A stretch of 43,746 bases of DNA from Bacteroidia bacterium. GTDB lineage: Bacteria > Bacteroidota > Bacteroidia > UBA4408. Shown in pieces: positions 7,671 through 37,512 of the stretch. Numbering within the stretch: the first letter of the stretch is position 1; every line of letters begins with the position of its first letter. The stretch is from assembly GCA_040080595.1 (NCBI GenBank), contig JBEBIC010000001.1:1-43746 (forward strand), written 5' to 3'. Position numbers and translations under genes: made by a program. Below the pieces are notes generated by a model. The model was not told the origin of the DNA, did not search any database, and worked only from the letters and a program-made list of their open reading frames with translations.

Positions 7671-8297
7671 TTAGTCTTTAATACGTGTAATAACGGCTTC
7701 GCTCCACAGTTTTTCTAAGTTGTAATGTTCGCGTGCGTCAGGCTGAAATACGTGCGCAACCACGTTTACGTAGTCAAGCAGTACCCATTCGGCAGCACCT
7801 TTTCCTTCAATATGAAACGGTTTTTCGTCAGCATTTTTACGTACCTCTTCCCATACACTATCTGCAATGGCAGCTACTTGCGTGGTAGATTCGGCTTGAC
7901 TTATTACAAAAAAATCGGTTACTGCATTTTCTACATCACGCAAGTCCATTACGGTTATGCGTTGTGCTTTCTTTTCTTGCATACCCATTATTATATGCTC
8001 TACTAACAGCTCAGCATTATCTACAGTTGCTTTCTTTTTCTTTTTGCTTGTCTTGCTAGGTAATTCTACTTTTGCAGGACTTACTTTTTTAGCTACAGCT
8101 TTTTTTGCAGCTACCTTTTTAGCAGCAACTTTCTTAGGAGCTACTGTTTTTTTAACAGCAGTTTTTTTAGGCGCAACTACTTTTTTAGCGGCATTTTTTT
8201 TAGCTGGTACAGCTTTTTTGGCGGTTACTTTCTTTGCCGCTACTTTTTTTACTGCAGTTTTTTTAGCTGCAACTGGTTTGGTTATCTTTGATGTCAT
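7671..8297 (-). CDS. rsfS: Ribosomal silencing factor RsfS (iojap) with a ~90-residue N-terminal Lys/Ala-rich histone-H1-like extension
   Basis: The C-terminal ~110 aa (LVEHIIMGMQEKKAQRITVMDLRDV...DFFVISQAES...WVLLDYVNVVAHVFQPDAREHYNLEKLW) is a clear RsfS/iojap domain. Residues 1 to ~92 (8022-8297) are AAKK/VAKK/APKK repeats. No Met lies upstream of the first RsfS helix other than M1, and using M1 leaves only a 60-nt gap to divergent birA. The position upstream of ftsH is conserved synteny as I recall it. Confidence 0.85.
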   Translation of the reverse strand: MTSKITKPVAAKKTAVKKVAAKKVTAKKAVPAKKNAAKKVVAPKKTAVKKTVAPKKVAAKKVAAKKAVAKKVSPAKVELPSKTSKKKKKATVDNAELLVEHIIMGMQEKKAQRITVMDLRDVENAVTDFFVISQAESTTQVAAIADSVWEEVRKNADEKPFHIEGKGAAEWVLLDYVNVVAHVFQPDAREHYNLEKLWSEAVITRIKD

Positions 8298-25226: not shown

Positions 25227-25817
25227 TTAGTATTTAAAACTTATTCCAGCTTGTAGTAGTGGTCCGCCTAAGCCTGACTCTATGTTTAAATTTATATTGT
25301 TAGCTAAGGGGTAATTAAAACCAAAACTCATTTTAAACGCAATAGGTAATAGTTCTGATAAGTTACCTCTTTCATAATAATAATTTAGGTGTTTATTAGC
25401 ATAAAATAATTTAATGCCCACTCCAGCACAAGCGTACGTAGTTAGTTTTTCTCGTACTTTTTGAATTTTGCTAAATCTAAACACAAATCTATGTTTGCTA
25501 AATTCTTCTCTATAAATATTACCACTATTTATTGTACTTACCACACTTTGTGCAAACGTATATTCAAATCCAAAGCCTCTGTTGTTAGTCTTGTTTTGCT
25601 CCAGTTTAATACCAATATGATTAGTACTATGTAACGTGTATTTGGCAGAATATGGTTGTCCGTAGGCGTTTGTACCTTTTACATTAGTTGTTCCATTCAT
25701 AAGAAACTCTCCATTATTTAAAAAAGGCCATCCTGTAAAAATAGTTACACTGCTATTTTGAGCAACTGTAGCTCTACAAACAAATGCACCTATCAAAACT
25801 AAAAATAATGCTTTCAT
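25227..25817 (-). CDS. Small outer-membrane beta-barrel protein (8-strand size class)
   Basis: 196 aa. Signal peptide (..ATVAQ), alternating strand pattern, and a terminal ...LQAGISFKY aromatic C-terminus. Confidence 0.65.
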   Translation of the reverse strand: MKALFLVLIGAFVCRATVAQNSSVTIFTGWPFLNNGEFLMNGTTNVKGTNAYGQPYSAKYTLHSTNHIGIKLEQNKTNNRGFGFEYTFAQSVVSTINSGNIYREEFSKHRFVFRFSKIQKVREKLTTYACAGVGIKLFYANKHLNYYYERGNLSELLPIAFKMSFGFNYPLANNINLNIESGLGGPLLQAGISFKY

Positions 25818-25838
25818 AACGTTATATGTTTTTTAAAT

Positions 25839-25879
25839 AGTTATGTGTATGCCTTACTGAATAAGGCATACACATAACT
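25839..25879 (-). terminator. 18-bp perfect hairpin separating the leader-box array from the small barrel gene
   Basis: AGTTATGTGTATGCCTTA (25839-25856) pairs perfectly with TAAGGCATACACATAACT (25862-25879) around the loop CTGAA. It starts 6 nt after the stop of the 25885-27018 gene. There is no U-run. Confidence 0.6.
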
Positions 25880-25884
25880 AAAGT

Positions 25885-27018
25885 TTAATTATGGTTTTTA
25901 GCATTAAAGCCTAACGAAACACCAATTCTAAATCCACTTTTGGCAGGTACTACGTACGCATTTACAGGTAAGTTAAGTTTGCCCGATTTAAACGTACGAC
26001 CAACAGCTAGTATAAAACCCGAATTTAATTTTACATTGCCACGGCTATCCAAACGTTCAATAATTTCGTACGGATTGGCAATGCCTGCATTATCTTTATT
26101 CCACTCACCCTCTCTGCGCCAATCGCCATTGGAATCGTAATAGCCGTATGCTTTGGTAATAATATTAATGGTAGGGCCTAAGGCAAATTCCCAACCATTT
26201 ACATTGCTACGCAAACCATGCAAAAGCGAAAAGCTGGGTATAAACAAACCTTGGTCAAGCCCTGTTATCATTGGTAAAAATTCAAACAATGCTTGTACGT
26301 TTCCTTCGTTTAAATATTGTTTTTCAAACTGATAACCAAACTGAAACATTACAGGATAGCCGTCAAACCCACCTGACGCTTTTGATTGTTGTAACACTTT
26401 ACCTGTGTTACCTGTAAAGCCAACAAAACCAAGGCGAGGGCCATCAAGTTGCAAACGGTCTTGGTTAGGATTATTTGATGAATTGTCAAAGCCATCTACT
26501 TTGGTAAGTTTGGCTAACAAATTAGCATCAACAGGTTTGCCAAACATTGTTTGTACTATAATAGCTGTAAGGCTTTGCAGTTCTTCAGGCAAATTCAAAA
26601 ACTCTATAACGGTTGTTTTTTCTATGCTTTTGCTTTTTACATCTATTAAGCGGAGGGTATAAATAATAGATTTTGGATATTTTTCAATACTACCGCTAAG
26701 CATCTTGTCCGATTTTATTATTTCGCCTATTTCGGTAAGGCATATTTTCCCAAAACAGTTGTCTATTTTTACTTTGTTTTTTTCTACCATATACGCCACG
26801 TCGTACCTGTCCATTACTTGATAGTTGTCGAGTTTTTCTAACTCTATACGTACCAAATTGCCCACTTGCTCGGAGTTGGCAATACCGCTTAAACCGCCAG
26901 CATCAACAGATAGCACAGTAAGTGTTTGTTTGGGTAATAATGAACCTTGCGCATTAACAATAAACGCTGTTATGCTTAATGCAGTAGTAATTACTATTGT
27001 TTTTAGTGTAGTTTTCAT
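25885..27018 (-). CDS. P1: secreted protein with N-terminal CsgG/LpoB/FlgO-like (TolB-N-like) domain and C-terminal beta-barrel-like region; shares leader and 5' UTR with P2
   Basis: 377 aa. It starts MKTTLKTIV like P2 but ends in an SPI-type site (VNAQG). Residues ~30-150 fit the periplasmic alpha/beta pattern of CsgG/LpoB/FlgO-type domains (LTVLSVDAGGL...GNLVRIELEKLDNYQVMDRYDV...EIGEIIKSDKMLSGSIEK...YTLRLIDVKSKSI). The C-terminal ~190 aa is Gly/aromatic-rich and strand-like (GFVGFTG..., MFQFGYQFE..., FRIGVSLGFNA). Confidence 0.7.
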   Translation of the reverse strand: MKTTLKTIVITTALSITAFIVNAQGSLLPKQTLTVLSVDAGGLSGIANSEQVGNLVRIELEKLDNYQVMDRYDVAYMVEKNKVKIDNCFGKICLTEIGEIIKSDKMLSGSIEKYPKSIIYTLRLIDVKSKSIEKTTVIEFLNLPEELQSLTAIIVQTMFGKPVDANLLAKLTKVDGFDNSSNNPNQDRLQLDGPRLGFVGFTGNTGKVLQQSKASGGFDGYPVMFQFGYQFEKQYLNEGNVQALFEFLPMITGLDQGLFIPSFSLLHGLRSNVNGWEFALGPTINIITKAYGYYDSNGDWRREGEWNKDNAGIANPYEIIERLDSRGNVKLNSGFILAVGRTFKSGKLNLPVNAYVVPAKSGFRIGVSLGFNAKNHN

Positions 27019-27035
27019 TTTTATTGGGGTTTAGT
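26990..27035 (-). repeat. Shared start/5'-UTR block, copy at P1
   Basis: ATTACTATTGTTTTTAGTGTAGTTTTCATTTTTATTGGGGTTTAGT is near-identical to 27718-27765 apart from single-T indels. It covers the first 9-10 codons and ~17 nt upstream. Confidence 0.8.
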
Positions 27036-27065
27036 GTTTAACTTAAATTGTTGTTTTATAAACTA

Positions 27066-27746
27066 TTACATCACAATTAAACTTATAAGCATAAGTAGCG
27101 CAATAAGTGCAAGAGGTACTGTAGCTATAAGTGCAATTGTATTGCCTTTGTATTTTTGTTTATTTTTCTTTATAGCTATAAGAGCTATTATTCCAAAAAT
27201 GCCACCCGTTACTAAACTTGCAGCCGCAGCAAATAGGAATAAAGCTCCAAATATTACAGCTACTAAATCAGCAGTTATAATTAGTATTGCACCCAATATT
27301 GTTAGTATAGCACCAATAATTGTAAATGTTAATCCGCTAATGGCGGCAGGGTGCGTAACTATTTGTTCGGTAGCTTTAGCGGAGTTATTGGTATTATTAG
27401 GTTGCGTTCTTATATAGTCGCTAGAGTCTTGCTTAGCTATTGTATTATTACGTTTAGTAATGTGGCGAGTTATTAATGGTGGAGTAGTTTTTGGTGGAGT
27501 GATAATCATTTCGCTGTTGTTGTTTAGCATATTTGTGCTGGCAGAGGTTGTAGCTTCATCTTGTGGTTGTGTGGTAGGTAATTCACTTTCTATAGTGGCT
27601 AACTGTTGTGGTTTAACTTTATTTATTTTGCTATTCCAGTTAATGTTGTAACCGTTGCTGTACATGCGTTTTTGCACAGAGCACGATGTTAGTAGTGTTG
27701 ATGCAACTATTATTGCCATTACTATTGTTTTTAGTGTAGTTTTCAT
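27066..27746 (-). CDS. P2: leader-box membrane protein paralog, type-A C-terminal module
   Basis: 226 aa. MKTTLKTIVMAIIVASTLLTSC lipobox, then SVQKRMYSNGYNINWN. A T/N/Q/P-rich spacer follows. The C-terminus has 3-4 G/A/I/L-rich helices with a basic KKNKQKYKG loop. Confidence 0.75.
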   Translation of the reverse strand: MKTTLKTIVMAIIVASTLLTSCSVQKRMYSNGYNINWNSKINKVKPQQLATIESELPTTQPQDEATTSASTNMLNNNSEMIITPPKTTPPLITRHITKRNNTIAKQDSSDYIRTQPNNTNNSAKATEQIVTHPAAISGLTFTIIGAILTILGAILIITADLVAVIFGALFLFAAAASLVTGGIFGIIALIAIKKNKQKYKGNTIALIATVPLALIALLMLISLIVM

Positions 27747-27765
27747 TTTTTATTGGGGTTTTAGT
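27718..27765 (-). repeat. Shared start/5'-UTR block, copy at P2
   Basis: See 26990-27035. Further upstream, AGTGTTTAA(C/T)T..TTGTT..TATA is also shared. Confidence 0.8.
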
Positions 27766-27811
27766 TGGTTAATTTTGTTTAGTGTTTAATTGAAGTTGTT
27801 TATATTAAAAG

Positions 27812-28438
27812 TTAAAGCGTTAAAAAATTATCCATTGTAGATGTATTCATAAAATAGATTATCCCTATTACCAAAAGAATTGGCATTACTATAAGATATA
27901 CCCAAAATGCTTTTACTGCAAATTTTGCACGCTTTTTAGTTTTAGTTACGTGGGGGTATTTATCTATTTCTCTCAATACACGCTTTGCTAATACAAAACT
28001 TATTATTAGGGCTAAAGGCGACATTGTAAATAAAAATATTGACCCTAACGATATTGAAAATGCTACATTGGCTTCCCTTATTAGTTTTTCCTGTTTTTTT
28101 AAATCATCTTGCTCAGTTCCAATAACCGTATCCAACTTTGTTACTACATTTTTAACCGTATTTAATTTTGTTTTTTTAACAGTTGTTAAACTTATCTTTT
28201 CAGTTTTAGTAACTGTTATTTTGGTTTCGATTGATGCCACGTAGTCGTCTGTTACTAAGCTATCATTAGCTGAGGCTGTTTTAATCTTGTTACTATTTGT
28301 ATCAGTTATGATTGACTTAGGAGCATTGTGTTTATTCATATTCCACGTAAAATTATACCCAGGGCTATACATACGTTTTTGTACGCTACACGATGTAAGT
28401 GTTAGTAATACTATTGTAATTGTGAGTGTAGTTTTCAT
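27812..28438 (-). CDS. P3: leader-box membrane protein paralog, type-B C-terminal module
   Basis: 208 aa. MKTTLTITIVLLTLTSC, then SVQKRMYSPGYNFTWN. The spacer is collinear with P4 up to residue ~104. The C-terminus has helices around the loop VLAKRVLREIDKYPHVTKTKKRAKF. Confidence 0.75.
   Translation of the reverse strand: MKTTLTITIVLLTLTSCSVQKRMYSPGYNFTWNMNKHNAPKSIITDTNSNKIKTASANDSLVTDDYVASIETKITVTKTEKISLTTVKKTKLNTVKNVVTKLDTVIGTEQDDLKKQEKLIREANVAFSISLGSIFLFTMSPLALIISFVLAKRVLREIDKYPHVTKTKKRAKFAVKAFWVYLIVMPILLVIGIIYFMNTSTMDNFLTL
28127..28264 (-). repeat. Internal near-identical block shared by P3 and P4 (copy in P3)
   Basis: Encodes DSLVTDDYVASIETKITVTKTEKISLTTVKKTKLNTVKNVVTKLDT. By eye there are about a dozen mismatches over 138 nt against 28802-28939, including a ~75-nt stretch with a single mismatch. 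Confidence 0.85.
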
Positions 28439-28453
28439 TTTGAGTTTTGTTTA
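28326..28453 (-). repeat. 128-nt leader + 5'-UTR repeat, copy at P3
   Basis: Covers TAAACAAAACTCAAA-ATG plus codons 1 to ~37. It aligns without gaps to 29001-29128 and 29740-29867. The TAA of this block is the stop codon of P4. Confidence 0.85.
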
Positions 28454-29113
28454 TAATGTTGTTATAAAACTAAGAAAGTATAAAAACAGAATTATACTGG
28501 ATAATATAGCTATGATAGAGGGTACGTACCCTTTATATTTTTTATGGTTTGAAATTATTTTCACTAAAGAAAACAAACCTAATAAACCTGCAGCTAAACC
28601 AATAATTAAACCAGTAACAGCTAATACATATAATACAAGTGCAGTTAATATACCATCAACTACTACAAAATATAGTCCTAAATGGAATAGCAATAAACCT
28701 GCTAAAGCACTTATTGCACTCGGTATTGCTGCTTCATAATTTATCTTGTTACTTGTATTTGTTTGTGCATCTCTTTGGTATAGTAATTCTGTTCCATTAA
28801 TTGTATCCAACTTTGTTACTACATTTTTAAACGTATTTAATTTTGTTTTTTTAACAGTTGTTAAACTTATCTTTTCGGTTTTAGCAATAATTATTTTGGT
28901 GTCTGTTGATGCCACGTAGTCGTCTATTACTAAGCTATCATAATGTGTGGTTTCTGCAATTTGATTATTATTTGCAGCAGTTGTATTATGTGTAGGAGTA
29001 TTGTGTTTATTAGTATTCCATATAAAATTATACCCAGGGCTATACATACGTTTTTGTATGCTACACGATGTAAGTGTTAGTAGGGCTACTATAACTGCGA
29101 GTGTAGTTTTCAT
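28451..29113 (-). CDS. P4: leader-box membrane protein paralog, type-A C-terminal module
   Basis: 220 aa. MKTTLAVIVALLTLTSC, then SIQKRMYSPGYNFIWN. The C-terminus has 3-4 G/A/L-rich helices with the loop ISNHKKYKG, as in P2. Its stop lies 12 nt from the P3 start. Confidence 0.75.
   Translation of the reverse strand: MKTTLAVIVALLTLTSCSIQKRMYSPGYNFIWNTNKHNTPTHNTTAANNNQIAETTHYDSLVIDDYVASTDTKIIIAKTEKISLTTVKKTKLNTFKNVVTKLDTINGTELLYQRDAQTNTSNKINYEAAIPSAISALAGLLLFHLGLYFVVVDGILTALVLYVLAVTGLIIGLAAGLLGLFSLVKIISNHKKYKGYVPSIIAILSSIILFLYFLSFITTL
28802..28939 (-). repeat. Internal near-identical block shared by P3 and P4 (copy in P4)
   Basis: Encodes DSLVIDDYVASTDTKIIIAKTEKISLTTVKKTKLNTFKNVVTKLDT. See 28127-28264. 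Confidence 0.85.
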
Positions 29114-29128
29114 TTTGAGTTTTGTTTA
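29001..29128 (-). repeat. 128-nt leader + 5'-UTR repeat, copy at P4
   Basis: See 28326-28453. Confidence 0.85.
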
Positions 29129-29150
29129 AAGAGATGAATATTTTGCTTTT

Positions 29151-29852
29151 TTATATTACAAATGAACCTACACTCATACTAAAAAGACTTATTAACGAGC
29201 CAATAATAAGTGAAAGCCAAAATAATAATAGAGCTATGTTAGCATATTGTTTTGCTGTACGCACCGTTTCCTCTAAATCGTATTCATTATTCACTTTATG
29301 AGGGTTTTCTTTTATTAATTTTAATGTTTTTTTAGCCCATGATTTAGCTAAAAAAGCCGTAACTAACGATGTAGTATAAATTAGTGAAAAAACGAGAATG
29401 AAAATTTCGTTATTAGTATAGTTTAAAAAAAACACATACATAATTCCACCCGTAATAACACCTATTAATGATGCAATTGCGATTTGTTTACTAATTTTTC
29501 CAGTTTTAACAATGTATTTAATTTGTTTAGCACTAACTGTTTTTTTACTTATAAATAGAGTTGAGTCTAACAGTGTATTTTTCTTATGTCTTTTTTGTGG
29601 TAATATATATACGATTTTGGTTTTTTCTTTTTTTGGTAACTCCACATAATCATTAGTGTTTGCTAAAACAGTACTTTCTTCAACACTATTATTTACGCTA
29701 TCTATTTTATATTCAGTTACATTGTTATAAGTTGGGTTATTATGTTTATTAGTATTCCAAGTAAAATTATACCCAGAGCTATACATACGTTTTTGCACAT
29801 TACACGATGCAAGCGTTAGTAATGCTATTATAACAGTGAGTGTAGTTTTCAT
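29151..29852 (-). CDS. P5: leader-box membrane protein paralog, type-B C-terminal module (first gene of the array)
   Basis: 233 aa. MKTTLTVIIALLTLASC, then NVQKRMYSSGYNFTWN. A K/N-rich spacer follows. The C-terminus has helices around the loop FLAKSWAKKTLKLIKENPHKVNNEYDLEETVRTAKQY. Confidence 0.75.
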   Translation of the reverse strand: MKTTLTVIIALLTLASCNVQKRMYSSGYNFTWNTNKHNNPTYNNVTEYKIDSVNNSVEESTVLANTNDYVELPKKEKTKIVYILPQKRHKKNTLLDSTLFISKKTVSAKQIKYIVKTGKISKQIAIASLIGVITGGIMYVFFLNYTNNEIFILVFSLIYTTSLVTAFLAKSWAKKTLKLIKENPHKVNNEYDLEETVRTAKQYANIALLLFWLSLIIGSLISLFSMSVGSFVI

Positions 29853-29867
29853 TTTGAGTTTTGTTTA
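29740..29867 (-). repeat. 128-nt leader + 5'-UTR repeat, copy at P5
   Basis: See 28326-28453. Confidence 0.85.
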
Positions 29868-29878
29868 ATTTTCTGGTA

Positions 29879-29886
29879 CAAACATA
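29879..29886 (-). promoter_or_regulatory. Candidate -7 box (TATGTTTG on the minus strand) for the P5-P1 array
   Basis: CAAACATA on the + strand is the reverse complement of TAnnTTTG. It ends 26 nt upstream of the P5 ATG. I found no comparable box in the 12-65-nt gaps between P5, P4, P3, P2 and P1. Confidence 0.4.
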
Positions 29887-29988
29887 TACCACCACAGTGG
29901 GCTATTAAAACGGTTTTGTAGCCCTGCTTTTTTAAAAGTTGCATAAAACAATAATTTGGAGTACTAAAAAATGTAAAAGCTCAATTAT

Positions 29989-30003
29989 TTGCAATAAATG
30001 CAA
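29989..30003. promoter_or_regulatory. Operator-like palindrome, site 1 (TTGCAATAAATGCAA)
   Basis: Half-sites TTGCA/TGCAA separated by 5 nt. Identical to site 3 and the reverse complement of site 2. It overlaps a TTTG (29988-29991) in about the right place for a -33 element of the regulator promoter. Confidence 0.55.
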
Positions 30004-30014
30004 CTGCCCCCTTA

Positions 30015-30022
30015 TACTTTTG
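30015..30022 (+). promoter_or_regulatory. Candidate -7 box (TACTTTTG) for the HTH regulator gene
   Basis: Exact TAnnTTTG match 50 nt upstream of the ATG at 30073. It overlaps operator-like site 2. Confidence 0.45.
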
Positions 30023-30034
30023 CATTTATTGCAA
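30020..30034. promoter_or_regulatory. Operator-like palindrome, site 2 (TTGCATTTATTGCAA, flipped)
   Basis: Starts exactly 31 nt after site 1 and overlaps the -7 box. Confidence 0.55.
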
Positions 30035-30050
30035 ATAATAATTACCTTAG

Positions 30051-30065
30051 TTGCAATAAATGCAA
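30051..30065. promoter_or_regulatory. Operator-like palindrome, site 3 (TTGCAATAAATGCAA)
   Basis: Starts exactly 31 nt after site 2 and ends 7 nt before the regulator ATG, in the leader region. Confidence 0.55.
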
Positions 30066-30072
30066 ATAAAAT

Positions 30073-31077
30073 ATGCCTAAAAATATACAAGTAGAAATGC
30101 AGGAAGTGTTTGTACAGCACTTAAAACAAAGCGTACCCACCAATGTTTCGCTTGCCGATGATATTGCCGAACTCCTAAACATTAGCAACGACAGTGCTTA
30201 CCGCCGTTTGCGTTGCCAAACTGAGTTTACGCTTGATGAAACCTATAAAATATGTACCAAGTATCGCTTATCGTTAGATTCTATATTTTCCAACAAAGGC
30301 AATATGGTTACGTGCCATTATAACAAGCTAACCAACTCGGCACAAAGTTTTGAAACGTATTTAACCAGCCTATTGCATCAAATACAACAAATGCAAAAAA
30401 CTGAAGGTGCTAAGCTCATTTATGCTGCCGAAGAAGTGCCTATTGTGCGTTCGTTTCATTCAGCTAAATTGGCCGCTTTTAAGCTATTTTACTGGCAACG
30501 CTCGGTTTTAAACGTACCCGAATATCAACACGAAAAATTTACGTGGGACGTTATTCCCCAAGCACAGTTAGATATAGCACAGCAAATAAACACAGGCTAT
30601 ACACAAATAGAAAGTACCGAAATATGGACAAGCGATACCATACAAACCAATATAAAACAGGTAGAATATTATTTTGAGTCGGGGGCTTTTAAACACCGCG
30701 AAGATGCTATAGCAGTGCTTATGGAGTTAAAAACAATGTTGCAATTAATGAGTAATGATGCCGAAATAGAAAATAAAAACACGAATATAAATGGCACAGT
30801 AGTACCATTTAGCCTATATTACAGCGATTTGATGATTGGTACTAACTGCATACACATTAATAGTAACGATAGCTTACTGTCGTACATATCGTTTAACTCG
30901 CTTAACTCATTAGCTACCGCCAACCAAGAATTTTGTGGAGAAATAGACCAATGGATGAAAAATTTAATAAAAAAATCAACCTTAATAAGTGGTGTTGCCG
31001 AAAAACAACGTTTTCAGTTTTTTAACAAAGCCCACAAAGCCATTGACGATTGTATAGACCGCATCAATAATAGTTAA
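30073..31077 (+). CDS. Helix-turn-helix transcriptional regulator with large uncharacterised C-terminal domain
   Basis: 334 aa. Residues ~24-72 (VSLADDIAELLNISNDSAYRRLRCQTEFTLDETYKICTKYRLSLDSIF) have the XRE/cI-type HTH layout. The remaining ~260 aa carries no motif I recognise. It is transcribed divergently from the array. Confidence 0.75.
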   Translation: MPKNIQVEMQEVFVQHLKQSVPTNVSLADDIAELLNISNDSAYRRLRCQTEFTLDETYKICTKYRLSLDSIFSNKGNMVTCHYNKLTNSAQSFETYLTSLLHQIQQMQKTEGAKLIYAAEEVPIVRSFHSAKLAAFKLFYWQRSVLNVPEYQHEKFTWDVIPQAQLDIAQQINTGYTQIESTEIWTSDTIQTNIKQVEYYFESGAFKHREDAIAVLMELKTMLQLMSNDAEIENKNTNINGTVVPFSLYYSDLMIGTNCIHINSNDSLLSYISFNSLNSLATANQEFCGEIDQWMKNLIKKSTLISGVAEKQRFQFFNKAHKAIDDCIDRINNS

Positions 31078-31104
31078 ACACATAAAACATATTTTGACTT
31101 AAAT

Positions 31105-31139
31105 AAAAAAGAGAAGCAAATATTGCTTCTCTTTTTTTG
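31105..31139 (+). terminator. Intrinsic terminator of the regulator gene
   Basis: GAGAAGCAA (31111-31119) pairs with TTGCTTCTC (31123-31131). The stem can be extended by the flanking A-run/T-run and is followed by TTTTTTT. Confidence 0.7.
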
Positions 31140-31357
31140 TGTGGGAGATACTGAGTTTGAACCACTGCCCCCCCAATTATAAACAGGGAAGTGCTGAACC
31201 AATTAATTAAACTATTGTTTCGTAAAAAGGAAAACTACTGCATTAACTTATAAAATTGCTTTTTATTGTACCACAGTGTAAAAATATAGTTGGTATTTAT
31301 TTATACTAAAACAATGCAACCCTCGTTATTACTATCGTATTAACCAACTTTAAAAAA

Positions 31358-32260
31358 ATGAAAACGAACAAAATTCTTTCAACAGCAGCGTTATTAACTA
31401 TTGCACGTATAGTAGTTGCGCAGGAACAAACGCAACAACTAAAACAACTAAAAATAACAGACTTGTATGTGCACAATGGTTTTTTTGTAAATAGCACAAC
31501 TAACGGTAGTTTACAAGATTTTAAAACGCTTGCTCCACAATCTGTATTACTAAAAAATGATTTGAGTGCTTACTCACAATCCAATGGGTATTCGTTTGAT
31601 GGCAGAAGTATGCTTAGTGCATTGCTTGGTGTACAACTTAGAGATAAAAACAAAACAGGTTATAGAAAATCGCCTTTGTTGCGCTTAGGCGTTGGCTATT
31701 ATTCGGTGAGTGGCATCGCAACTAATTTTTACACCACAAAAACAATTACTTACGACACGCTAAAATCAACTAAATCTAGTGAAGTAACTTACTTGGATTC
31801 AGTAAAAAGAAAAAATTACAACATGGATTATTCAGCTAATCAATTACGGTTAGATGCTTCGTTAATTTTTAGAACCAATGCAGATGCACGCTGGTCGGCA
31901 TTTGCGGGCATTGGCATTAATGCGGGGGCATCGTTAAACTCAAGTACAAGAATTAGTTACTATGAAACAGAAGACAAAGAAGCAAGGAATACCGCAGGAG
32001 AGCATTATACAACCAATTATTACTCAAGCACGGTAGTAAATAGTAAGAGTGAAATAGCCAACAACAAAACCAATTTTACCTGCGCCGCTTATGTTCCTGT
32101 TGGTGTTGATTTTAGAATAGGCAAAAAAAGAGCGTTTTGGAAACATACACATTTGTTTTACGAGTTGCGCCCAAGCGTTGCTATTACTGCTATACCTGAG
32201 TTACGCACCTTTGCTGATGCAGGTGTACAACAAGGTATTGGGTTGCGAGTTACGTTGTAA
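31358..32260 (+). CDS. Outer-membrane beta-barrel protein, function unknown
   Basis: 300 aa. Signal peptide (..RIVVAQ), then repeated strand-like segments rich in Y/G/S/T (LRLGVGYYSVSG, LDASLIFRTN, FAGIGINAGASL, CAAYVPVGVDFRIG, VQQGIGLRVTL). Confidence 0.6.
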   Translation: MKTNKILSTAALLTIARIVVAQEQTQQLKQLKITDLYVHNGFFVNSTTNGSLQDFKTLAPQSVLLKNDLSAYSQSNGYSFDGRSMLSALLGVQLRDKNKTGYRKSPLLRLGVGYYSVSGIATNFYTTKTITYDTLKSTKSSEVTYLDSVKRKNYNMDYSANQLRLDASLIFRTNADARWSAFAGIGINAGASLNSSTRISYYETEDKEARNTAGEHYTTNYYSSTVVNSKSEIANNKTNFTCAAYVPVGVDFRIGKKRAFWKHTHLFYELRPSVAITAIPELRTFADAGVQQGIGLRVTL

Positions 32261-32276
32261 GTAGTCTAAAATAAAA

Positions 32277-32303
32277 TCGCCCTAACACAATGTGTTAGGG
32301 CGA
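32277..32303. terminator. 27-nt palindromic hairpin, copy 1 (TCGCCCTAACACAATGTGTTAGGGCGA)
   Basis: 12-bp perfect stem with a 3-nt loop, between convergent genes (31358-32260 + and 32333-34450 -). It is identical over all 27 nt to 34734-34760. Confidence 0.65.
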
Positions 32304-32332
32304 TTATTAATTAAAGCTATTTATGTGTACTC

Positions 32333-34450
32333 TTACTTACTTATAGCTAAGCGTTGTACTGCCTGTCCTTGATTAGTAATTGTTTTAACAAAATAAATCC
32401 CGTTAGCATCATTACTTAAATCAATAGTTTGTTTGCCTGCGTTTATAGTGTTAGTCATTATAACTCGTCCTAAAGCATCAGTAATAATTACTTGCGTAGT
32501 TACATTTGCATTAATAACAAAAATACCTGTGCTTGGGTTTGGATTAATTGTAATTGATTGCACTTTATTTTTAGCTGATAAACCAACTGGTGTTAATGAT
32601 ACACACGTACTTGTATCCGAACAGTTTCCTATAGTTACTATTACAGCATAACTACCACTTACAGTTGCAACATAATATTGATTTGTAGCTCCTGCTATTG
32701 CAGAGTCTCCCATTGTACAATCTATCCATTGATAAGTTGCACCTGTGGCGTTTGCCGTTACAGTATCTTGATTAACGGTAGTGGTTACATCTATAACTGT
32801 ACCTACTGTTAGGTTAGTAGTTACTATACTGTCGCAACCGTTTATAGCCATTAGTGTATCGGTGTAAGTTCCTGTTGTGTTATAAACATTAGTTCCTACT
32901 GTAGTTGATTGCCCTGCACACAATACTAACGTTTGTGAGCTTGACAAAGGCGTGCAGCTATTTAAAATAGGGCGAATAACATGTGATTTAGCAAAAGTAG
33001 CACCAAAATTTTCAACAGGTGTCCACGCTTGTCCTGTCCAACTAGCGAATGCTGTATTTGGAGTAAATATGTCGTTAGTTACAGCTAAACCAATATTGGT
33101 ATTGTACTCTGTTATTGCTACTAAATAGTTGCCAGGTTGTAACATTAGGTTAGCGCCTCCTATAGCTTTTATAGCATGTGTGCGTAATACTAGCCCTAAG
33201 GTGTCTGCAGGAGTAAATACATAATTAGCCGATGTGCCTATAATAGCATTAGGTAAGCCCGCTGCAAAATCATAAATAACTACTTTAGTTGAATCGCCAA
33301 CGCCATTTCCATTTCCAGAGCCAGGTTTATTTAAACCAACTAACACCGAATCTATGTAAGTAGCTGCATTTACAGTAAACATAGTACCTAAATAACCAGT
33401 AGGGCCTGCGCCTATTCCATAAGCGGTAGATACAGTACCATTATCTCTAGCGTACTCTCCATTACTTACCGTAAATGTATAAGAACTAGTGTCGGCTGCT
33501 GTAGCTGTATTATTAGTACACGATGATATGTATTGTACCATATAATCGCCAGTGGTTGTGGGTGTAAATGTTCCTGTATTAATTACAGCGTTGGCTGAAA
33601 TAGCCAAACTTACAGTTGCCGAAGTTGCTGTAAATACGGGTGTAGTAAAATTAGGTACTTTGTATACATTGGCGGTTAAAGTAGCGTCGGTAGTTGCTGT
33701 AGCTCCATTGTTTGTAACGGTTGATTCCATAGGAATAGCCACAACTTGTGTAAGAGGGACAATTGTATATGGCATTGGGTTATTTGCTACTATAACATCA
33801 GCATTGCCACCTGCAGGTGTATAGGTAAAATCATCAATACCTATATTGTCGCTAGCAGTACCAGTAGGACCTCCATTAGTTACATAGTATCTAAATGCCA
33901 TGCGCCCAGTCATAGCCATTGGTAAGCCACTTACGATTAGTGTATATTTTGTCCAAACGCTAGGGTAGCTACCTGTGCCTGTAAGAGTTAATGTTGGGTT
34001 AATGTCCAACAATAGCGTAGAAAAATCTCCAACAGAAGATGCTGTAGTACCTACATTAGTACTAGTTCCATTTACGGACAATCGTACTTGCATTCTATCT
34101 GCATAAGTAGGTACATCTACCGTTCTACTATAAAACGTAACTACATCTCCATTGTTAAACGTGCGTGCAGGTGTTATTAACCAACAACTAATATCTCCAG
34201 CACTAGCAACCATATTATAATTACCATTAATAAACCCTGTACCCGCATTTGGAGCAAAAGGAGTAGTACCTGTTCCTTGAAACCAATCAGTAGTTGTACC
34301 TATTGGGGTACTTAGGTTGTTTGTTGCCCAGCCACTCGTGGCAAGGGTTGTTATGTCATCAAACGATTCGGTAATCGCCTGTGCCGATACGCTTGAAGTA
34401 ATAGCAAGACCTGCGCCTATGCTTAACATGTTTTTGTAGATTTTTTTCAT
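32333..34450 (-). CDS. T9SS-secreted protein with N-terminal choice-of-anchor-J-like domain
   Basis: 705 aa with a signal peptide (..SVSAQA). The N-terminal block ESFDDITTLATSGWATNNLSTPIGTTTDWFQG...GDISCWLITPARTF resembles the choice-of-anchor J domain as I remember it. The middle is Thr/Asn-rich and Ig-like, with Cys-containing repeats. Type-A T9SS CTD (ITINPNPSTGIFVIN...GIYFVKTITNQGQAVQRLAISK). Confidence 0.8.
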   Translation of the reverse strand: MKKIYKNMLSIGAGLAITSSVSAQAITESFDDITTLATSGWATNNLSTPIGTTTDWFQGTGTTPFAPNAGTGFINGNYNMVASAGDISCWLITPARTFNNGDVVTFYSRTVDVPTYADRMQVRLSVNGTSTNVGTTASSVGDFSTLLLDINPTLTLTGTGSYPSVWTKYTLIVSGLPMAMTGRMAFRYYVTNGGPTGTASDNIGIDDFTYTPAGGNADVIVANNPMPYTIVPLTQVVAIPMESTVTNNGATATTDATLTANVYKVPNFTTPVFTATSATVSLAISANAVINTGTFTPTTTGDYMVQYISSCTNNTATAADTSSYTFTVSNGEYARDNGTVSTAYGIGAGPTGYLGTMFTVNAATYIDSVLVGLNKPGSGNGNGVGDSTKVVIYDFAAGLPNAIIGTSANYVFTPADTLGLVLRTHAIKAIGGANLMLQPGNYLVAITEYNTNIGLAVTNDIFTPNTAFASWTGQAWTPVENFGATFAKSHVIRPILNSCTPLSSSQTLVLCAGQSTTVGTNVYNTTGTYTDTLMAINGCDSIVTTNLTVGTVIDVTTTVNQDTVTANATGATYQWIDCTMGDSAIAGATNQYYVATVSGSYAVIVTIGNCSDTSTCVSLTPVGLSAKNKVQSITINPNPSTGIFVINANVTTQVIITDALGRVIMTNTINAGKQTIDLSNDANGIYFVKTITNQGQAVQRLAISK

Positions 34451-36028: not shown

Positions 36029-37321
36029 CTACTTAGCAATACTAAATTTAGTACTCGTAGTAGTGGTTTTTATAACGTAAATACCATTTGTTAAGTGTGC
36101 AACATCAACTGTATTTACGCCATTTACTAGCTGTAATTCCAACACTTTATTACCCATATAGTTGTATATGTATATTTTTTGATTTTGATTGCTCTGTAGC
36201 GTAATTAACCCTTGCGATGGATTAGGATAAACGCTTATAGCATTGGTTTCGCTTTTATAATTAATAGCATTGGTACAACTCAATTTATTAATATAATCCC
36301 ACAACACATTATCAAACGCTGAGCCAGCAAAACTAAAGCCTCCTGCACTATTGCCCTGTCTTATTACTACTAAATTTTGGCTTGGTACTACGTATATTTT
36401 TTGGTCGTTTTTACCTAATGCACAATACATATCGTTAGGAGCATTGGGTATTAACGAGCCTGGCACAGCTATTTGTGAGAATGGTGCCATTGCGCTACTT
36501 TTTCCATTTAACCACCACAAGTAACCATACGAATTATTTAGTGCCTGCGAGCTATTAATCATAGCATTAAAATACGATGTATCTTTCATTAATGTATCCG
36601 TTTTCCAAATTCCTTTATTTAAACTCAATAAGCCAAAGCGAGCCATATCTCGTGCTTTGCTATAATATATTTGCTGGCTCCATGCTCCGCCCATTCCTAT
36701 TTTAGATTTTATCCAGTTGGTTGTAATTGCATTGTACGATAGCCCAACAGCAGCACTTACCACATCTTGCACATGGTAATAAGCACCTGTGTGATAGCCC
36801 CAACGTGTGCCTGCATCAGCTTTGTATATTAAACAGGCTTTGGCGGTATCGAGGTGGTCGCAAGGTAAGGGTGGTTGGTCATCTAAACCACTATTCATAC
36901 TTAATAAATGTTTAATGGTTATTAAATTTTCTTTAGCTAAAAGCTCCGAAGTCCAGCCAGTACCAATGTACTGCGACACCTTGTTGTTGATGTTGATATA
37001 ACCTTTTTGTTGTGCTACACCTGTTATAAAACTAGCTAAGCTCTTACTTGCCGATGCCCAATACCACAATGAATCTTGTGTGTAAGTGCCAAAATATTTT
37101 TCTAATACTATTTTTCCATCTTTTAATACGATGAATGATTTAGAATTTTTGGCTTGCAAATAATTATACAACGAATCAACACGAGGTTGGCAATACCCAA
37201 GTAATGATGGCGACAAGGTATCCCACGTAGTACCAACAGATGGTGGAAAATACAAACTTTGAGCTTGTGCGTAAGCTACTGAAATGCAAAATAAGAAAGG
37301 AAGTAAAATTAATTTTTTCAT
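36029..37321 (-). CDS. T9SS-secreted serine hydrolase of the beta-lactamase/PBP4-like family (start corrected)
   Basis: The track ORF runs to 37558, but the first 79 codons are junk-like and would overlap the DPP-IV start. The ATG at 37319-37321 gives MKKLILLPFLFCISVAYAQAQ, a clean signal peptide. SxxK nucleophile motif (WASASKSLASF). T9SS CTD (ISVYPNPSQGLITLQ...GIYVIKTTTTSTKFSIAK). Confidence 0.8.
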   Translation of the reverse strand: MKKLILLPFLFCISVAYAQAQSLYFPPSVGTTWDTLSPSLLGYCQPRVDSLYNYLQAKNSKSFIVLKDGKIVLEKYFGTYTQDSLWYWASASKSLASFITGVAQQKGYININNKVSQYIGTGWTSELLAKENLITIKHLLSMNSGLDDQPPLPCDHLDTAKACLIYKADAGTRWGYHTGAYYHVQDVVSAAVGLSYNAITTNWIKSKIGMGGAWSQQIYYSKARDMARFGLLSLNKGIWKTDTLMKDTSYFNAMINSSQALNNSYGYLWWLNGKSSAMAPFSQIAVPGSLIPNAPNDMYCALGKNDQKIYVVPSQNLVVIRQGNSAGGFSFAGSAFDNVLWDYINKLSCTNAINYKSETNAISVYPNPSQGLITLQSNQNQKIYIYNYMGNKVLELQLVNGVNTVDVAHLTNGIYVIKTTTTSTKFSIAK

Positions 37322-37512
37322 AAGTGTTGATGTAGTTTTAAATAAAAGTAATAGTTTTTTAGTAATAACGATACTCATTTTAACGAACCATTTTTTTTTA
37401 ATTGTACTTGCAAAATAAAGCGTGTGTAAATATAATTTATTACACGCTTTTTGTTTTTTTAAACAGTAATACACTACATTCGTATAATCATAATTTATAA
37501 CACAATTAAAAA

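What the first reader, a model, noticed from the sequence alone, without database searches (positions are those of the whole stretch)
25227..32260. Candidate self-contained envelope module: HTH regulator + operator triplet + leader-box array + three barrel-type proteins
About 7 kb between the ZIP permease gene and the hairpin at 32277 has no recognisable housekeeping role, and it is tightly organised. In order it contains a small OM barrel (25227-25817) and an 18-bp perfect hairpin. Next come P1, a CsgG/LpoB-like domain plus barrel-like region, and P2-P5. These five look like one transcription unit: the gaps are only 47, 65, 12 and 37 nt, and a single TAnnTTTG box lies upstream of P5. A 220-nt divergent control region with three identical palindromes follows, then a 334-aa HTH regulator with its own terminator, and finally a 300-aa OM barrel. 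The inner-membrane-type tails of P2-P5, the periplasmic CsgG/LpoB-like domain of P1 and the OM barrels would together touch every envelope layer. No enzyme, ATPase or known transporter is present, so this is not a recognisable secretion, efflux or defence system. My inference is a regulated envelope or surface-remodelling or exclusion-type module of unknown function. This is the best candidate for something undescribed in the window.
Basis: inference. Interest (0 to 1): 0.72.

Follow-up and report, generated by a model that had tools for sequence, protein, structure and literature searches.

The report
Regulator-controlled envelope-protein operon, function unknown
This stretch of an uncultured Bacteroidia genome holds a previously unnamed DNA-binding regulator with a conserved operator, facing an operon of unnamed cell-envelope proteins; the regulatory design is ordinary, the protein families are undescribed, and their function remains unknown.

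Summary
The conserved core is smaller than the claimed 7-kb module.

**Core**
- A 334-aa regulator (REG), with an XRE-type helix-turn-helix (HTH) and an unclassified alpha/beta C-terminal domain.
- Its palindromic operator, TTGCR-N5-YGCAA.
- A divergent promoter.
- A variable slot of small lipid-anchored membrane proteins (P2-P5).
- P1, often but not always present. P1 is an outer-membrane 8-stranded barrel carrying a periplasmic LpoB/TolB-N-like domain.

**Evidence for the core**
- The operator lies just upstream of REG in 40 of 71 related loci, about 1300-fold enriched over flanking DNA.
- Its variants change symmetrically.
- P1 lies in the divergent operon in 14 of 38 informative loci, down to 34% REG identity.

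**What is not part of it**
- The two flanking barrel genes are not conserved partners.
- The P2-P5 "leader box" is a lipoprotein signal plus the motif S[IV][EQ]KRxYxxGYx[IV]xWN. It belongs to a widespread family (at least 466 clusters) that usually occurs without REG.
- The module is not self-contained. In relatives the same promoter also drives phospholipid-synthesis, SPOR (peptidoglycan-binding domain) and outer-membrane genes.

No link to phage, plasmid or defence systems was found. Best reading: an autoregulated one-component switch controlling an envelope operon. The families are new; the logic is familiar.

The parts
25227..25817 (-). OMP196: exported small outer-membrane beta-barrel candidate. 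It neighbours the operon and may be read through from it, but it is not a conserved partner.
   Evidence: It has a signal peptide ending A|Q and a C-terminal ...GISFKY. Its only homolog in the loci examined is the tandem-fused 440-aa gene next to REG in L007. That gene passes Pfam OMP_b-brl, 34.4 bits against a cut-off of 28.7. The PorG match is far below its cut-off.
25838..25880 (.). Perfect 19-bp hairpin between P1 and OMP196. It is a likely RNA 3'-end or stabilising stem; only a weak T-tail follows it on the transcribed strand.
   Evidence: -28.8 kcal/mol, z -9.0
25885..27018 (-). P1: outer-membrane protein. Its parts are a signal peptide (cleavage ...VNA|QG), a periplasmic LpoB/TolB-N/GNA1162-fold domain (about residues 30-172), a flexible linker, and a C-terminal 8-stranded OmpX/Ail-like barrel (about residues 193-377).
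   Evidence: The AF2 model has pLDDT 78.5. Foldseek matches LpoB at E 2e-5, TM 0.65-0.69, rmsd 2.9-3.9, and OmpX/Ail at E 4e-4, TM 0.52-0.57. There are 1644 homologs, all named hypothetical and none in Pfam. It sits in the REG-divergent operon in 14 of 38 loci.
27066..27746 (-). P2: leader-box lipoprotein with four C-terminal transmembrane segments.
27812..28438 (-). P3: leader-box lipoprotein with two C-terminal transmembrane segments.
   Evidence: It shares a 300-nt repeat at 85% identity with P4.
28451..29113 (-). P4: leader-box lipoprotein with a DUF4190-like C-terminal transmembrane hairpin.
   Evidence: Members of its family carry PF13828.
29151..29852 (-). P5: leader-box lipoprotein and first gene of the divergent operon. 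In sister strain L001, P4 and P5 together are replaced by a single different cassette.
29879..29886 (-). Bacteroidota-type -7 box (TATGTTTG) of the divergent promoter.
   Evidence: Its position is conserved in relatives whatever the first gene is, together with an upstream GAAACGG block.
29989..30003 (.). Operator O1, TTGCAATAAATGCAA.
   Evidence: In most relatives only the left half-site is present at this position.
30020..30034 (.). Operator O2, TTGCATTTATTGCAA. This is the ancestral central operator and overlaps an exact TAnnTTTG match at 30015-30022.
   Evidence: It is conserved at fixed offsets in nearly all loci with REG identity of 53% or more, and it has symmetric TTGCG..CGCAA variants. 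Enrichment over flanking DNA is about 1300-fold.
30051..30065 (.). Operator O3, TTGCAATAAATGCAA. It lies just downstream of a conserved -7-like box, TACCTTAG, at 30043-30050.
   Evidence: At this position relatives carry the related palindrome TAGTA-N5-TACTA.
30073..31077 (+). REG: one-component transcription regulator. It has an N-terminal XRE-type HTH (about residues 1-75) and a C-terminal alpha/beta domain of unclassified type (about residues 90-334).
   Evidence: The AF2 model has pLDDT 79. Foldseek matches the N-domain to SinR, ClgR and C.BclI at TM 0.55-0.67, rmsd 2.3-2.7. The C-domain matches PLD-fold proteins and TrmB only weakly. The Pfam BetR match is just below its cut-off. There are 1844 homologs. 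Most positions of the predicted recognition helix, residues 38-47, are invariant.
31105..31137 (+). Intrinsic terminator of REG.
31358..32260 (+). OMP300: exported protein and possible beta-barrel. It is adjacent to the conserved unit but not part of it.
   Evidence: It is found only in strains with 96% identical REG, L001-L003. It has no family or PDB match.
32275..32305 (.). Bidirectional terminator hairpin that closes the region.

Best explanation
The region is the local version of a conserved regulator-plus-divergent-operon unit of an uncultured Bacteroidia lineage.

**Regulatory part (well supported, but inferred).**
- REG is an XRE-type HTH protein with an uncharacterised alpha/beta C-terminal domain, presumably a sensor or oligomerisation domain.
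- REG is inferred to bind, as a dimer, the palindrome TTGCR-N5-YGCAA in the 220-nt intergenic region.
- In this lineage the single ancestral operator has grown to three full sites 31 bp apart, about three helical turns, so all lie on one face of the DNA.
- These sites overlap or flank the REG promoter and lie upstream of the conserved divergent promoter.
- REG therefore most likely represses its own gene cooperatively. In response to an unknown signal it also sets the level of the divergent transcript P5-P4-P3-P2-P1, possibly reading through the hairpin into OMP196.

**Products (shown by sequence or model).**
- Four paralogous inner-membrane proteins. Each has an N-terminal lipid anchor, the basic-aromatic motif S[IV][EQ]KRxYxxGYx[IV]xWN, a roughly 100-aa low-complexity periplasmic linker, and C-terminal transmembrane hairpins.
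- P1, an outer-membrane 8-stranded barrel that presents an LpoB/TolB-N-type domain to the periplasm.

**Function (inferred from context only).** The likely role is cell-envelope organisation or homeostasis. P1 would act as an outer-membrane-anchored periplasmic adaptor. The variable lipoproteins would be exchangeable inner-membrane partners or cargo.

OMP196 and OMP300 are neighbours, not conserved components.
For: **HTH**
- Structural matches to SinR, ClgR and C.BclI.
- A BetR match at E 1e-3.
- PF08667 precomputed for two homologs.

**Operator**
- Three exact copies within 77 nt.
- The same palindrome lies at fixed offsets upstream of REG in 40 of 71 loci, 4.8 per kb against 0.0036 per kb elsewhere.
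- Symmetric variants TTGCG...CGCAA keep the dyad.
- Seven of the ten positions of the predicted recognition helix, residues 38-47, are invariant in 38 homologs and two more are nearly so.

**Divergent promoter**
- The -7 box and an upstream block are conserved irrespective of the first gene.
- The first upstream gene is divergent in 37 of 38 loci.

**REG-P1 linkage**
- P1 is present in 14 of 38 loci: 8 of 16 at REG identity of 60% or more, 4 of 5 at 50-60%, and also at 34% identity.
- Starting from P1 homologs, REG is recovered next to two of three tested.
- Locus tags in public MAGs are adjacent or lie within three genes of each other.

**Small membrane proteins in the first slot**
- Leader-box types occur next to REG in the window lineage, in L007 and in the 44-46% identity clade: L054, L055, L061 and L083.
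- Related non-canonical types (c18, c22, c46) fill the slot elsewhere.

**Envelope theme**
- Relatives' operons contain CDP-OH_P_transf, Acyltransferase, CTP_transf_1, SPOR and outer-membrane proteins.

**P1 fold:**

**Lipobox:** the Cys is invariant and the preceding Ser nearly invariant in 50 diverse family members.
Against: - There is no experimental or transcript evidence. REG binding, the sign of regulation and co-transcription are all inferred.
- P1 is absent from the REG-divergent operon in about half of the closest clade: L010-L013, L021, L027 and L066. It can also occur without REG or the operator, as in L080.
- In REG clades below 50% identity the divergent genes are an aldehyde dehydrogenase, a DnaJ-domain protein, a glyoxalase-type protein and a ferredoxin. 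The family is therefore not tied to envelope genes.
- Leader-box proteins are mostly solitary genes elsewhere.
- The REG C-terminal fold matches are all weaker than E 1e-3.
- The P1 model is least confident (pLDDT 61-68) over residues about 231-260, which overlap part of the run of invariant residues 225-237.
Confidence: 0.6

Rival explanations
1. REG only autoregulates, or regulates distant genes. The minus-strand genes are then an independent, constitutively expressed set of envelope genes that happen to abut it.
For: - All strong operator copies lie closer to REG than to P5.
- The content of the divergent operon differs widely between loci.
- P1 can exist without REG.
Against: - The divergent arrangement is kept in 37 of 38 loci.
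- The divergent -7 box and the upstream block are conserved together with the operator, whatever gene follows.
- The REG-P1 pairing persists down to 34% REG identity.
Confidence: 0.15
2. P1 and the leader-box lipoproteins form a trans-envelope contact system. It would act like the Lpo activators or Tol-Pal: an outer-membrane-anchored LpoB-fold domain reaches inner-membrane partners or peptidoglycan synthases to coordinate wall and outer-membrane growth.
For: - The P1 N-domain has the LpoB/TolB-N fold.
- Relatives' operons carry SPOR-domain and OmpA-like proteins.
- P2-P5 have periplasmic linkers of about 100 aa that are long enough to span the periplasm.
Against: - The fold is generic; CsgG, GNA1162 and TolB share it.
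- P1 has no lipobox and no long N-terminal linker, unlike LpoB.
- No penicillin-binding protein gene is linked to the module. The PBP2/RodA genes of the window lie 21 kb away.
- Leader-box proteins occur widely without P1.
Confidence: 0.12
3. P1 oligomerises into a CsgG-like outer-membrane channel that exports or anchors a surface product. In this reading the monomeric 8-stranded barrel is a modelling artefact.
For: - The P1 N-domain has a CsgG-type periplasmic fold.
- Thirteen consecutive invariant residues, 225-237, cover both faces of a predicted strand. Model confidence drops from about residue 231.
Against: - No curli, amyloid or polysaccharide genes are nearby.
- P1 is not a lipoprotein.
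- Foldseek gives coherent matches to monomeric 8-stranded barrels.
Confidence: 0.05
4. The region is a mobile, defence or superinfection-exclusion island.
For: - G+C dips to 0.28-0.32 over 27-30 kb.
- The array differs between strains whose flanking genes are 96-99% identical.
Against: - No integrase, tRNA or repeat boundaries.
- No PADLOC or PHROGs family.
- No relatives of REG or P1 in phage records or viral contigs, and none of P1 in plasmid records.
- REG and P1 are vertically conserved core-like genes, 60-75% identical across many MAGs.
- The low G+C matches the N/K/T-rich linkers.
Confidence: 0.04

Closest known systems
Lambda CI/Cro-type (XRE-family) switches and C-protein controllers: HTH repressors with several phased palindromic operators between divergent promoters
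   Same: - A five-helix XRE-type HTH.
- Dyad-symmetric operators: three phased sites in a roughly 220-nt region between divergent promoters, overlapping the regulator's own promoter.
- Autoregulation is implied.
   Different: - The unit is chromosomal and vertically conserved, not from a phage or restriction-modification system.
- The C-terminal 250 aa form an alpha/beta domain with no S24 peptidase and no known sensor family.
- The operator is 15 bp with a 5-bp A/T spacer.
- Most relatives have a single full operator.
LpoB (outer-membrane activator of PBP1B in enterobacteria) and the TolB N-terminal, GNA1162 and CsgG periplasmic fold
   Same: The P1 N-domain superposes on the LpoB C-domain at TM 0.65-0.69, rmsd 2.9-3.9 A. 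The domain is held at the outer membrane and faces the periplasm.
   Different: - P1 is anchored by a C-terminal 8-stranded barrel, not by an N-terminal lipid.
- There is no sequence similarity.
- There is no evidence of PBP binding.
- A conserved Cys pair, C88/C93, is present.
OmpA, OmpX and Ail small 8-stranded outer-membrane barrels
   Same: The P1 C-terminal half is predicted as an 8-stranded barrel matching OmpX, Ail, NspA and OprF-N at TM 0.5-0.57. Like OmpA, P1 combines a barrel with a periplasmic globular domain.
   Different: - The domain order is reversed, with the periplasmic domain first.
- The periplasmic domain is not OmpA_C.
- The barrel is unusually conserved on both faces.
- No Pfam barrel family matches.
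DUF4190, TM2 and Pmp3 small membrane-hairpin proteins
   Same: The C-terminal hairpins of P2 and P4 align with family members that carry PF13828.
   Different: - The window copies themselves do not reach any Pfam threshold.
- They carry the N-terminal lipobox plus KRxYxxGYxxxW leader and a long low-complexity linker.
- Four tandem, rapidly exchanging copies are present.
RRNPP quorum-sensing regulators (Rgg, PlcR, PrgX): XRE HTH plus a peptide-binding domain
   Same: Similar size, with an N-terminal XRE HTH. They appear among the Foldseek hits.
   Different: - TM scores are only 0.16-0.20.
- The REG C-domain contains beta-sheets instead of an all-helical TPR array.
- No small peptide gene is conserved nearby.

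Membership tests
XRE/Cro-CI-type HTH transcription regulators | Five-helix HTH_3-type DNA-binding domain | tested here: met
   AF2 helices lie at residues 3-73. Foldseek matches SinR-N, ClgR and C.BclI at TM 0.55-0.67, rmsd 2.3-2.7 A, probability 0.99-1.0. At the sequence level the result is only borderline: BetR scores 19.4 bits against a cut-off of 21.6.
XRE/Cro-CI-type HTH transcription regulators | Binding to a dyad-symmetric operator near its own promoter | tested here: inconclusive
   A conserved palindrome, enriched about 1300-fold and varying symmetrically, lies upstream of REG. Physical binding cannot be tested with these tools.
RRNPP (Rgg/PlcR/PrgX) regulators | C-terminal all-helical TPR-like peptide-binding domain | tested here: not met
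   The model has five strands of three or more residues within 114-282. TM scores to Rgg, PlcR and PrgX are 0.11-0.20.
LpoB (PBP1B activator) | Globular domain with the LpoB fold | tested here: met
   Foldseek gives E 1.9e-5 to 3e-5, TM 0.65-0.69.
LpoB (PBP1B activator) | N-terminal lipobox with lipid anchor, and a long disordered linker before the domain | tested here: not met
   The P1 signal peptide ends ...IVNA|QGS with no Cys, and the domain starts about 8 residues later.
LpoB (PBP1B activator) | Binds the UB2H domain of PBP1B and stimulates it | not testable with these tools
   No class A PBP gene is linked to the module. The only PBP in the window is a PBP2-type gene at 2885-4741.
CsgG curli secretion channel | Lipoprotein, nonameric 36-stranded channel, and csgE/csgF/csgA/csgB neighbours | tested here: not met
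   P1 has no lipobox, no Pfam CsgG match and no curli genes nearby. Its oligomeric state is not testable here.
Small 8-stranded outer-membrane barrels (OmpX/Ail/OmpA-N) | Eight antiparallel amphipathic strands closing a barrel, with both termini periplasmic | tested here: met
   The P1 model has eight long strands within 193-370. It matches OmpX, Ail, NspA and OprF-N. This is a model only; pLDDT is 61-68 in strands 2-3.
Bacterial lipoproteins (P2-P5) | Signal peptide ending in a lipobox, [LVI][ASTVI][GAS]C | tested here: met
   The lipobox is L-T/A-S-C at residues 14-17, or 19-22 in P2. The Cys is invariant and the Ser nearly invariant in 50 diverse family members. Lipidation itself is not testable.
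DUF4190 (PF13828) | Significant match to the Pfam model | tested here: not met
   P2-P5 have no PF13828 hit. 24 of 50 proteins carrying the same leader do, as do 4 of 47 full-length relatives. The C-terminal motif ...NxxKYKG aligns.
T9SS PorG (for OMP196) | NCBIfam NF052316 at or above its cut-off | tested here: not met
   14.4 bits against a cut-off of 130.
Known anti-phage defence systems | Match to any PADLOC model | tested here: not met
   The only match is one chance-level hit, E 0.022. There are no significant PHROGs hits.

The most novel reading that the evidence does not exclude
P1 and the leader-box lipoproteins could be parts of a so far unrecognised trans-envelope system of Bacteroidia. 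P1 would be an outer-membrane barrel carrying an LpoB-fold domain. The leader-box proteins would be lipid-anchored, long-linker, hairpin-anchored inner-membrane proteins whose conserved KRxYxxGYxxxW leader acts as a docking or sorting signal. The system would couple the outer membrane to inner-membrane or peptidoglycan processes. It would be switched by a new class of XRE regulators whose PLD-like C-domain senses an envelope or lipid-derived signal.
Probability: 0.12. Interest if true: 0.7.

Novelty: new variant of a known kind. Interest (0 to 1): 0.4.

Why it matters
**Three sizeable protein families with no Pfam or NCBIfam model and no named function in any source**
- REG, about 1,800 sequences.
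- P1, about 1,600 sequences.
- The leader-box family, at least 466 clusters at 50% identity.

**What this work adds**
- An operator consensus for REG, TTGCR-N5-YGCAA, that can be tested directly.
- A first domain assignment for P1: an LpoB/TolB-N fold fused to a small barrel. That architecture was not found in the libraries and papers searched here.
- A conserved N-terminal leader on many small Bacteroidota membrane proteins that may be an anchoring or sorting signal.

If P1 proves to be a periplasmic adaptor for wall or outer-membrane assembly, it would fill a gap, since to my knowledge Lpo-type activators have not been reported in Bacteroidota. As it stands, this is a well-defined but functionally blank regulon in uncultured organisms.

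Tried and rejected
**Searches that found nothing usable**
- Pfam, NCBIfam, PADLOC and PHROGs scans of all eight proteins gave nothing above the curated cut-offs.
- Rfam gave nothing at gathering score over the whole window. At relaxed E-value over the region it gave only hairpin artefacts.
- Profile searches of PDB sequences with the P1 and REG alignments gave no usable hit.
- REG and P1 were searched against phage records, P1 against plasmid records, and both alignments against IMG/VR viral contigs. No relatives were found.
- Two literature searches, one on LpoB/beta-barrel/Bacteroidetes and one on DUF4190/TM2/lipoprotein, found no description of these families.

**A wasted call**
- The single genome-contig scan was run with one protein instead of an alignment and returned only 2 loci. 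The metagenome scan with the alignment made up for it.

**Ideas tested and rejected**
- The second 334-aa ORF of the window (9121-10125) is not a REG paralog.
- REG is not an RRNPP-type regulator.
- No HxK(x)4D motif is visible in the REG sequence, so if its C-domain is PLD-like it is non-catalytic.
- OMP196 is not PorG.
- The 424-aa, 450-aa and 730-aa envelope proteins of the relatives' operon are not present elsewhere in the window.
- P1 without REG (L080) does not retain the operator.
- TAnnTTTG is not enriched in the window. The promoter assignment rests on position and conservation, not on the match itself.

Full report
**1. Where the window comes from**

The window is a complete 43,746-nt contig of a public metagenome-assembled genome labelled "Bacteroidia bacterium". 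The genes of the finding are ABL940_00100 to ABL940_00135, and every one looked up is annotated "hypothetical protein". The rest of the contig is ordinary chromosome. It carries RodA, PBP2, FtsH, RsfS, a biotin ligase, an ABC-F ATPase, a SprB/PKD giant adhesin, UbiE, an acyl-CoA synthetase, a ZIP permease, several T9SS cargo proteins, an amino-acid dehydrogenase, DPP-IV, DXS and fumarase. There are no tRNAs, no Rfam matches and no integrase.

**2. Check of the observation**

- The gaps between P1, P2, P3, P4 and P5 are 47, 65, 12 and 37 nt.
- The hairpin after P1 has 19-bp perfect arms.
- REG has a strong intrinsic terminator, z = -6.8.
- The control region is 220 nt and contains three exact TTGCA-N5-TGCAA palindromes at 29989, 30020 and 30051, spaced 31 bp apart. 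Only one other exact copy exists in the window.
- A minus-strand TAnnTTTG box lies 26 nt before the P5 start. The motif by itself is at chance frequency in the window, so the single match is not evidence on its own.
- None of the eight proteins reaches the curated threshold of any Pfam, NCBIfam, PADLOC or PHROGs model.

**3. The regulator and its operator**

REG has 1,844 detectable homologs. The best 120 are 59-96% identical. Nearly all are unnamed and, apart from two with a precomputed BetR-type HTH hit, none carries a Pfam domain.

An AF2 model built on 38 homologs (pLDDT 79) shows two parts.
- An N-terminal five-helix bundle superposes on the XRE-type HTH domains of SinR, ClgR and C.BclI at TM 0.55-0.67, rmsd 2.3-2.7 A.
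- A 250-residue alpha/beta domain has only weak best matches, all E > 1e-3. They are PLD-fold proteins (BJ-TSA-9, NucT, Nuc) and TrmB.
- RRNPP regulators appear among the hits, but with TM of only about 0.16-0.20, and the model is not all-helical. That class is rejected.

I fetched 71 metagenomic loci with REG homologs of 31-69% identity, plus further loci found through individual proteins.
- The relaxed palindrome TTGCR-N5-YGCAA occurs in the 150 nt upstream of REG in 40 of 71 loci: 51 hits, 4.8 per kb.
- It occurs only three times in all other fetched DNA, 0.0036 per kb.
- It sits at fixed offsets from the start codon: -54, -66, -37, -47 or -83.
- Its variants change both arms together, TTGCG...CGCAA. 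That is the behaviour expected of a site read by a symmetric dimer.
- Most positions of the predicted recognition helix (residues 38-47, ISNDSAYRRLR) are invariant in the family.

An alignment of the intergenic regions of the 61-70% identity clade shows the following.
- The central operator, O2 of the window, is conserved in every aligned locus, exactly or with changes in the arm positions next to the spacer.
- The O1 position usually holds only a TTGCAA half-site.
- The O3 position holds a related palindrome, TAGTA-N5-TACTA.
- A -7-like box, TAccTTtA, lies between O2 and O3.
- On the other strand, a -7 box (TAATTTTG or TATGTTTG) and a GAAACGG block precede the first divergent gene, whatever that gene is.

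Full triplication of the TTGCA palindrome is specific to the window lineage: the window itself, L001-L003 and L006. This supports a one-component, autoregulated switch that also serves a divergent promoter. Binding, and whether regulation is negative or positive, remain inferred.

**4. P1**

P1 has 1,644 homologs, again unnamed and without Pfam domains. They are 53-99% identical over the full length. The AF2 model (pLDDT 78.5) has these parts:
- a signal peptide;
- an alpha/beta domain at about residues 30-172;
- a low-confidence linker;
- eight long strands between residues 193 and 370, with an extracellular insertion.

Foldseek matches the first domain to LpoB (E 2e-5, TM 0.65-0.69), TolB and GNA1162. 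It matches the second to OmpX, Ail, NspA, OprF-N and PagL (E from 4e-4, TM about 0.5).

P1 is not an LpoB or CsgG family member. It has no lipobox, no N-terminal linker and no sequence similarity, and its anchor is a C-terminal barrel.

Conservation is unusual for a barrel. For example, 13 consecutive residues, 225-237, are invariant. The model is least confident from about residue 231 to 260. The barrel may do more than anchor, or the protein may oligomerise. I could not test this.

**5. P2-P5**

Each protein has the same layout:
- a lipoprotein signal, L-T/A-S-C;
- the motif SVQKRMYSxGYNFxWN directly after the Cys;
- about 100 residues of N/T/K-rich low-complexity sequence;
- two to four C-terminal hydrophobic segments, with a DUF4190-like ...NxxKYKG loop in P2 and P4.

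A full-length profile finds only 47 relatives, four of them with PF13828. A 45-residue profile of the leader alone finds 466 cluster representatives among 1.84 billion proteins, nearly all 190-300 aa long. In a sample of 50, the Cys is invariant and S, K, Y, Y and W are nearly invariant. The C-terminal parts of that sample are DUF4190 (24), TM2 (9), DUF2207_C (9) or Pmp3 (3).

The "leader box" is thus a widespread N-terminal module of small Bacteroidota membrane proteins. It is conserved at the protein level and is not a device peculiar to this locus. Elsewhere such genes are solitary, with neither REG nor P1 nearby.

Within the window the array shows recent duplication and mosaicism: a 300-nt repeat at 85% identity and a 144-nt repeat at 86% identity, both including the 5' untranslated bases.

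In sister strain L001, the array is collinear with the window through P3, while P1 is 99% identical and REG 96%. P4 and P5 are then replaced by one gene with a P5-like 5' end and a different 3' half. The conserved leaders evidently act as recombination points for cassette turnover.

**6.

Counts below are from 38 roughly dereplicated loci with at least 3 kb upstream of REG.

| Feature | Loci with the feature (of 38) |
|---|---|
| First upstream gene divergent from REG | 37 |
| P1 in the divergent operon | 14 |
| Strict leader box | 4 |
| OMP196 homolog | 1 |
| OMP300 homolog | 1 (a near-identical strain) |

- P1 is present in 8 of 16 loci at REG identity of 60% or more, 4 of 5 at 50-60% and 2 of 17 below 50%. 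One of these loci has only 34% REG identity.
- Starting from P1 homologs, two of three had REG divergent with one variable gene between. The third, a 425-aa subfamily, had neither REG nor the operator.
- The first slot after the divergent promoter usually encodes a small protein with a signal or lipobox and C-terminal transmembrane hairpins, of several unrelated sequence types (c10, c18, c22, c30, c46).
- In the closest clade the operon commonly continues. It adds a CDP-alcohol phosphatidyltransferase-like gene, a 424-aa outer-membrane protein, a roughly 450-aa protein, a roughly 730-aa SPOR protein, an 85-aa protein and a TonB-dependent-type barrel. Some loci carry an acyltransferase, a CdsA-like gene and a second CDP-alcohol transferase gene in place of P1. 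None of these genes is in the window.
- In REG clades of 44-48% identity the divergent genes are metabolic.

The conserved unit is therefore REG, the operator and the divergent promoter. Envelope or lipid genes are its usual cargo in this clade, and P1 is the most frequent single partner. The 7-kb "module" is one lineage-specific composition of that unit, and the two flanking barrel genes are not part of it.

**7. Mechanism**

Shown:
- the sequence features;
- the predicted folds;
- conservation and dyad covariation of the operator;
- conserved divergent promoter elements;
- facultative but deep REG-P1 linkage;
- the lipobox and transmembrane architecture of P2-P5.

Inferred:
- REG dimers bind O1-O3 cooperatively, since 31 bp is about three helical turns.
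- Binding occludes the REG promoter. O2 overlaps an exact TAnnTTTG at 30015-30022, and O3 follows the conserved -7-like box at 30043-30050.
- REG controls the P5-P1 transcript in response to a signal sensed by its C-domain.
- The products act in the envelope.

Speculative: P1 contacts the lipoproteins or wall-synthesis proteins through its LpoB-fold domain.

From general knowledge rather than a test here, three points fit Bacteroidota biology:
- the TAnnTTTG -7 consensus;
- signal-peptidase I cleavage before Gln, seen here in P1, OMP196 and OMP300;
- the positive-inside rule, which places the KYKG loop in the cytoplasm and the linker in the periplasm.

**8. Rivals**

- Fortuitous adjacency is unlikely for the core, but it holds for OMP196 and OMP300.
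- A defence, exclusion or mobile reading has no support. The dip in G+C fits the low-complexity linkers.
- A channel reading and an Lpo-like reading of P1 remain open at low probability.

**9. Verdict**

The regulatory logic is of a known kind: an XRE-type, autoregulated divergent switch. REG, P1 and the leader-box proteins belong to families that are not described in any library or paper I could search.

Interest is moderate. The result gives a directly testable operator-regulator pair and a new outer-membrane architecture, but no function and no cultured host.

Noticed in passing
window 28451-29852 against L001 2772-3434: Between strains whose flanking genes are 96-99% identical, P4 and P5 are replaced by a single gene. 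That gene keeps the P5-like leader but has a different C-terminal membrane part. The conserved 5' leaders, which are 144-300-nt direct repeats, look like recombination points for cassette exchange.
   Followed up: partly
L004 2399-8877, L079 9140-17131, L081 9191-17131, L016 and others: In relatives the REG-divergent operon continues with a conserved set. It comprises a CDP-alcohol phosphatidyltransferase-like gene, a 424-aa outer-membrane protein with aspartate-rich (DxDxDG-type) repeats, a roughly 450-aa protein, a roughly 730-aa SPOR-domain protein, an 85-aa lysine-rich protein and a TonB-dependent-type barrel. Apart from the transferase-like gene these proteins are unnamed, and as a conserved set they may merit their own study.
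   Followed up: partly
L011, L012, L027 and L066, first 3-4 genes upstream of REG: Some loci carry a phospholipid-synthesis trio right after the REG-controlled promoter, in place of P1: a CDP-OH_P_transf gene, a CTP_transf_1 (CdsA-like) gene and an acyltransferase. This hints that the regulator's signal could be lipid-related.
   Followed up: partly
L054, L055, L061, L083 and proteins P0241-P0286: A subfamily of leader-box proteins carries an extra small central domain, ...CGD...KVxEIxxxxIKYKRCDNxxGPxYxIxKxxVxxIKYANG. The same domain occurs without the leader in the c22 proteins next to REG (L004, L018). It has no Pfam match.
   Followed up: no
L083 4880-5842: The REG homolog next to a leader-box gene in MAG GCA_016714245.1 is split into three reading-frame pieces. 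This is either a pseudogene or an assembly error. The operator is still present at 5899.
   Followed up: no
window 32333-34450; L003 2812-3915: The 705-aa T9SS cargo gene (choice-of-anchor J plus Por_Secre_tail) to the right of OMP300 is absent in sister strain L003, where the dehydrogenase gene follows OMP300 directly. L001 and L002 have a different gene there. This is a second strain-variable spot.
   Followed up: no
window 7671-8297 (-): The ribosomal silencing factor RsfS carries an N-terminal extension of about 90 aa that is lysine/alanine-rich and histone H1/HC2-like (34 bits, below the Pfam cut-off).
   Followed up: no
window 9121-10125 (+): A second 334-aa ORF has no Pfam family. It is not related to REG (BLASTP E 2.2).
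   Followed up: yes
window 1116-1130 and 2014-2028: Two further matches to the relaxed operator TTGCR-N5-YGCAA lie inside coding regions: the unannotated 155-aa ORF at 955-1422 and RodA. They are probably chance matches, since neither lies in a promoter position.
   Followed up: no
window 36029-37558 (-): A beta-lactamase-fold (serine hydrolase) protein carries a T9SS C-terminal sorting domain, so it is a secreted or surface-attached hydrolase. Its long TTG-start ORF overlaps the DPP-IV gene start by 46 nt, so the real start is probably further downstream.
   Followed up: no
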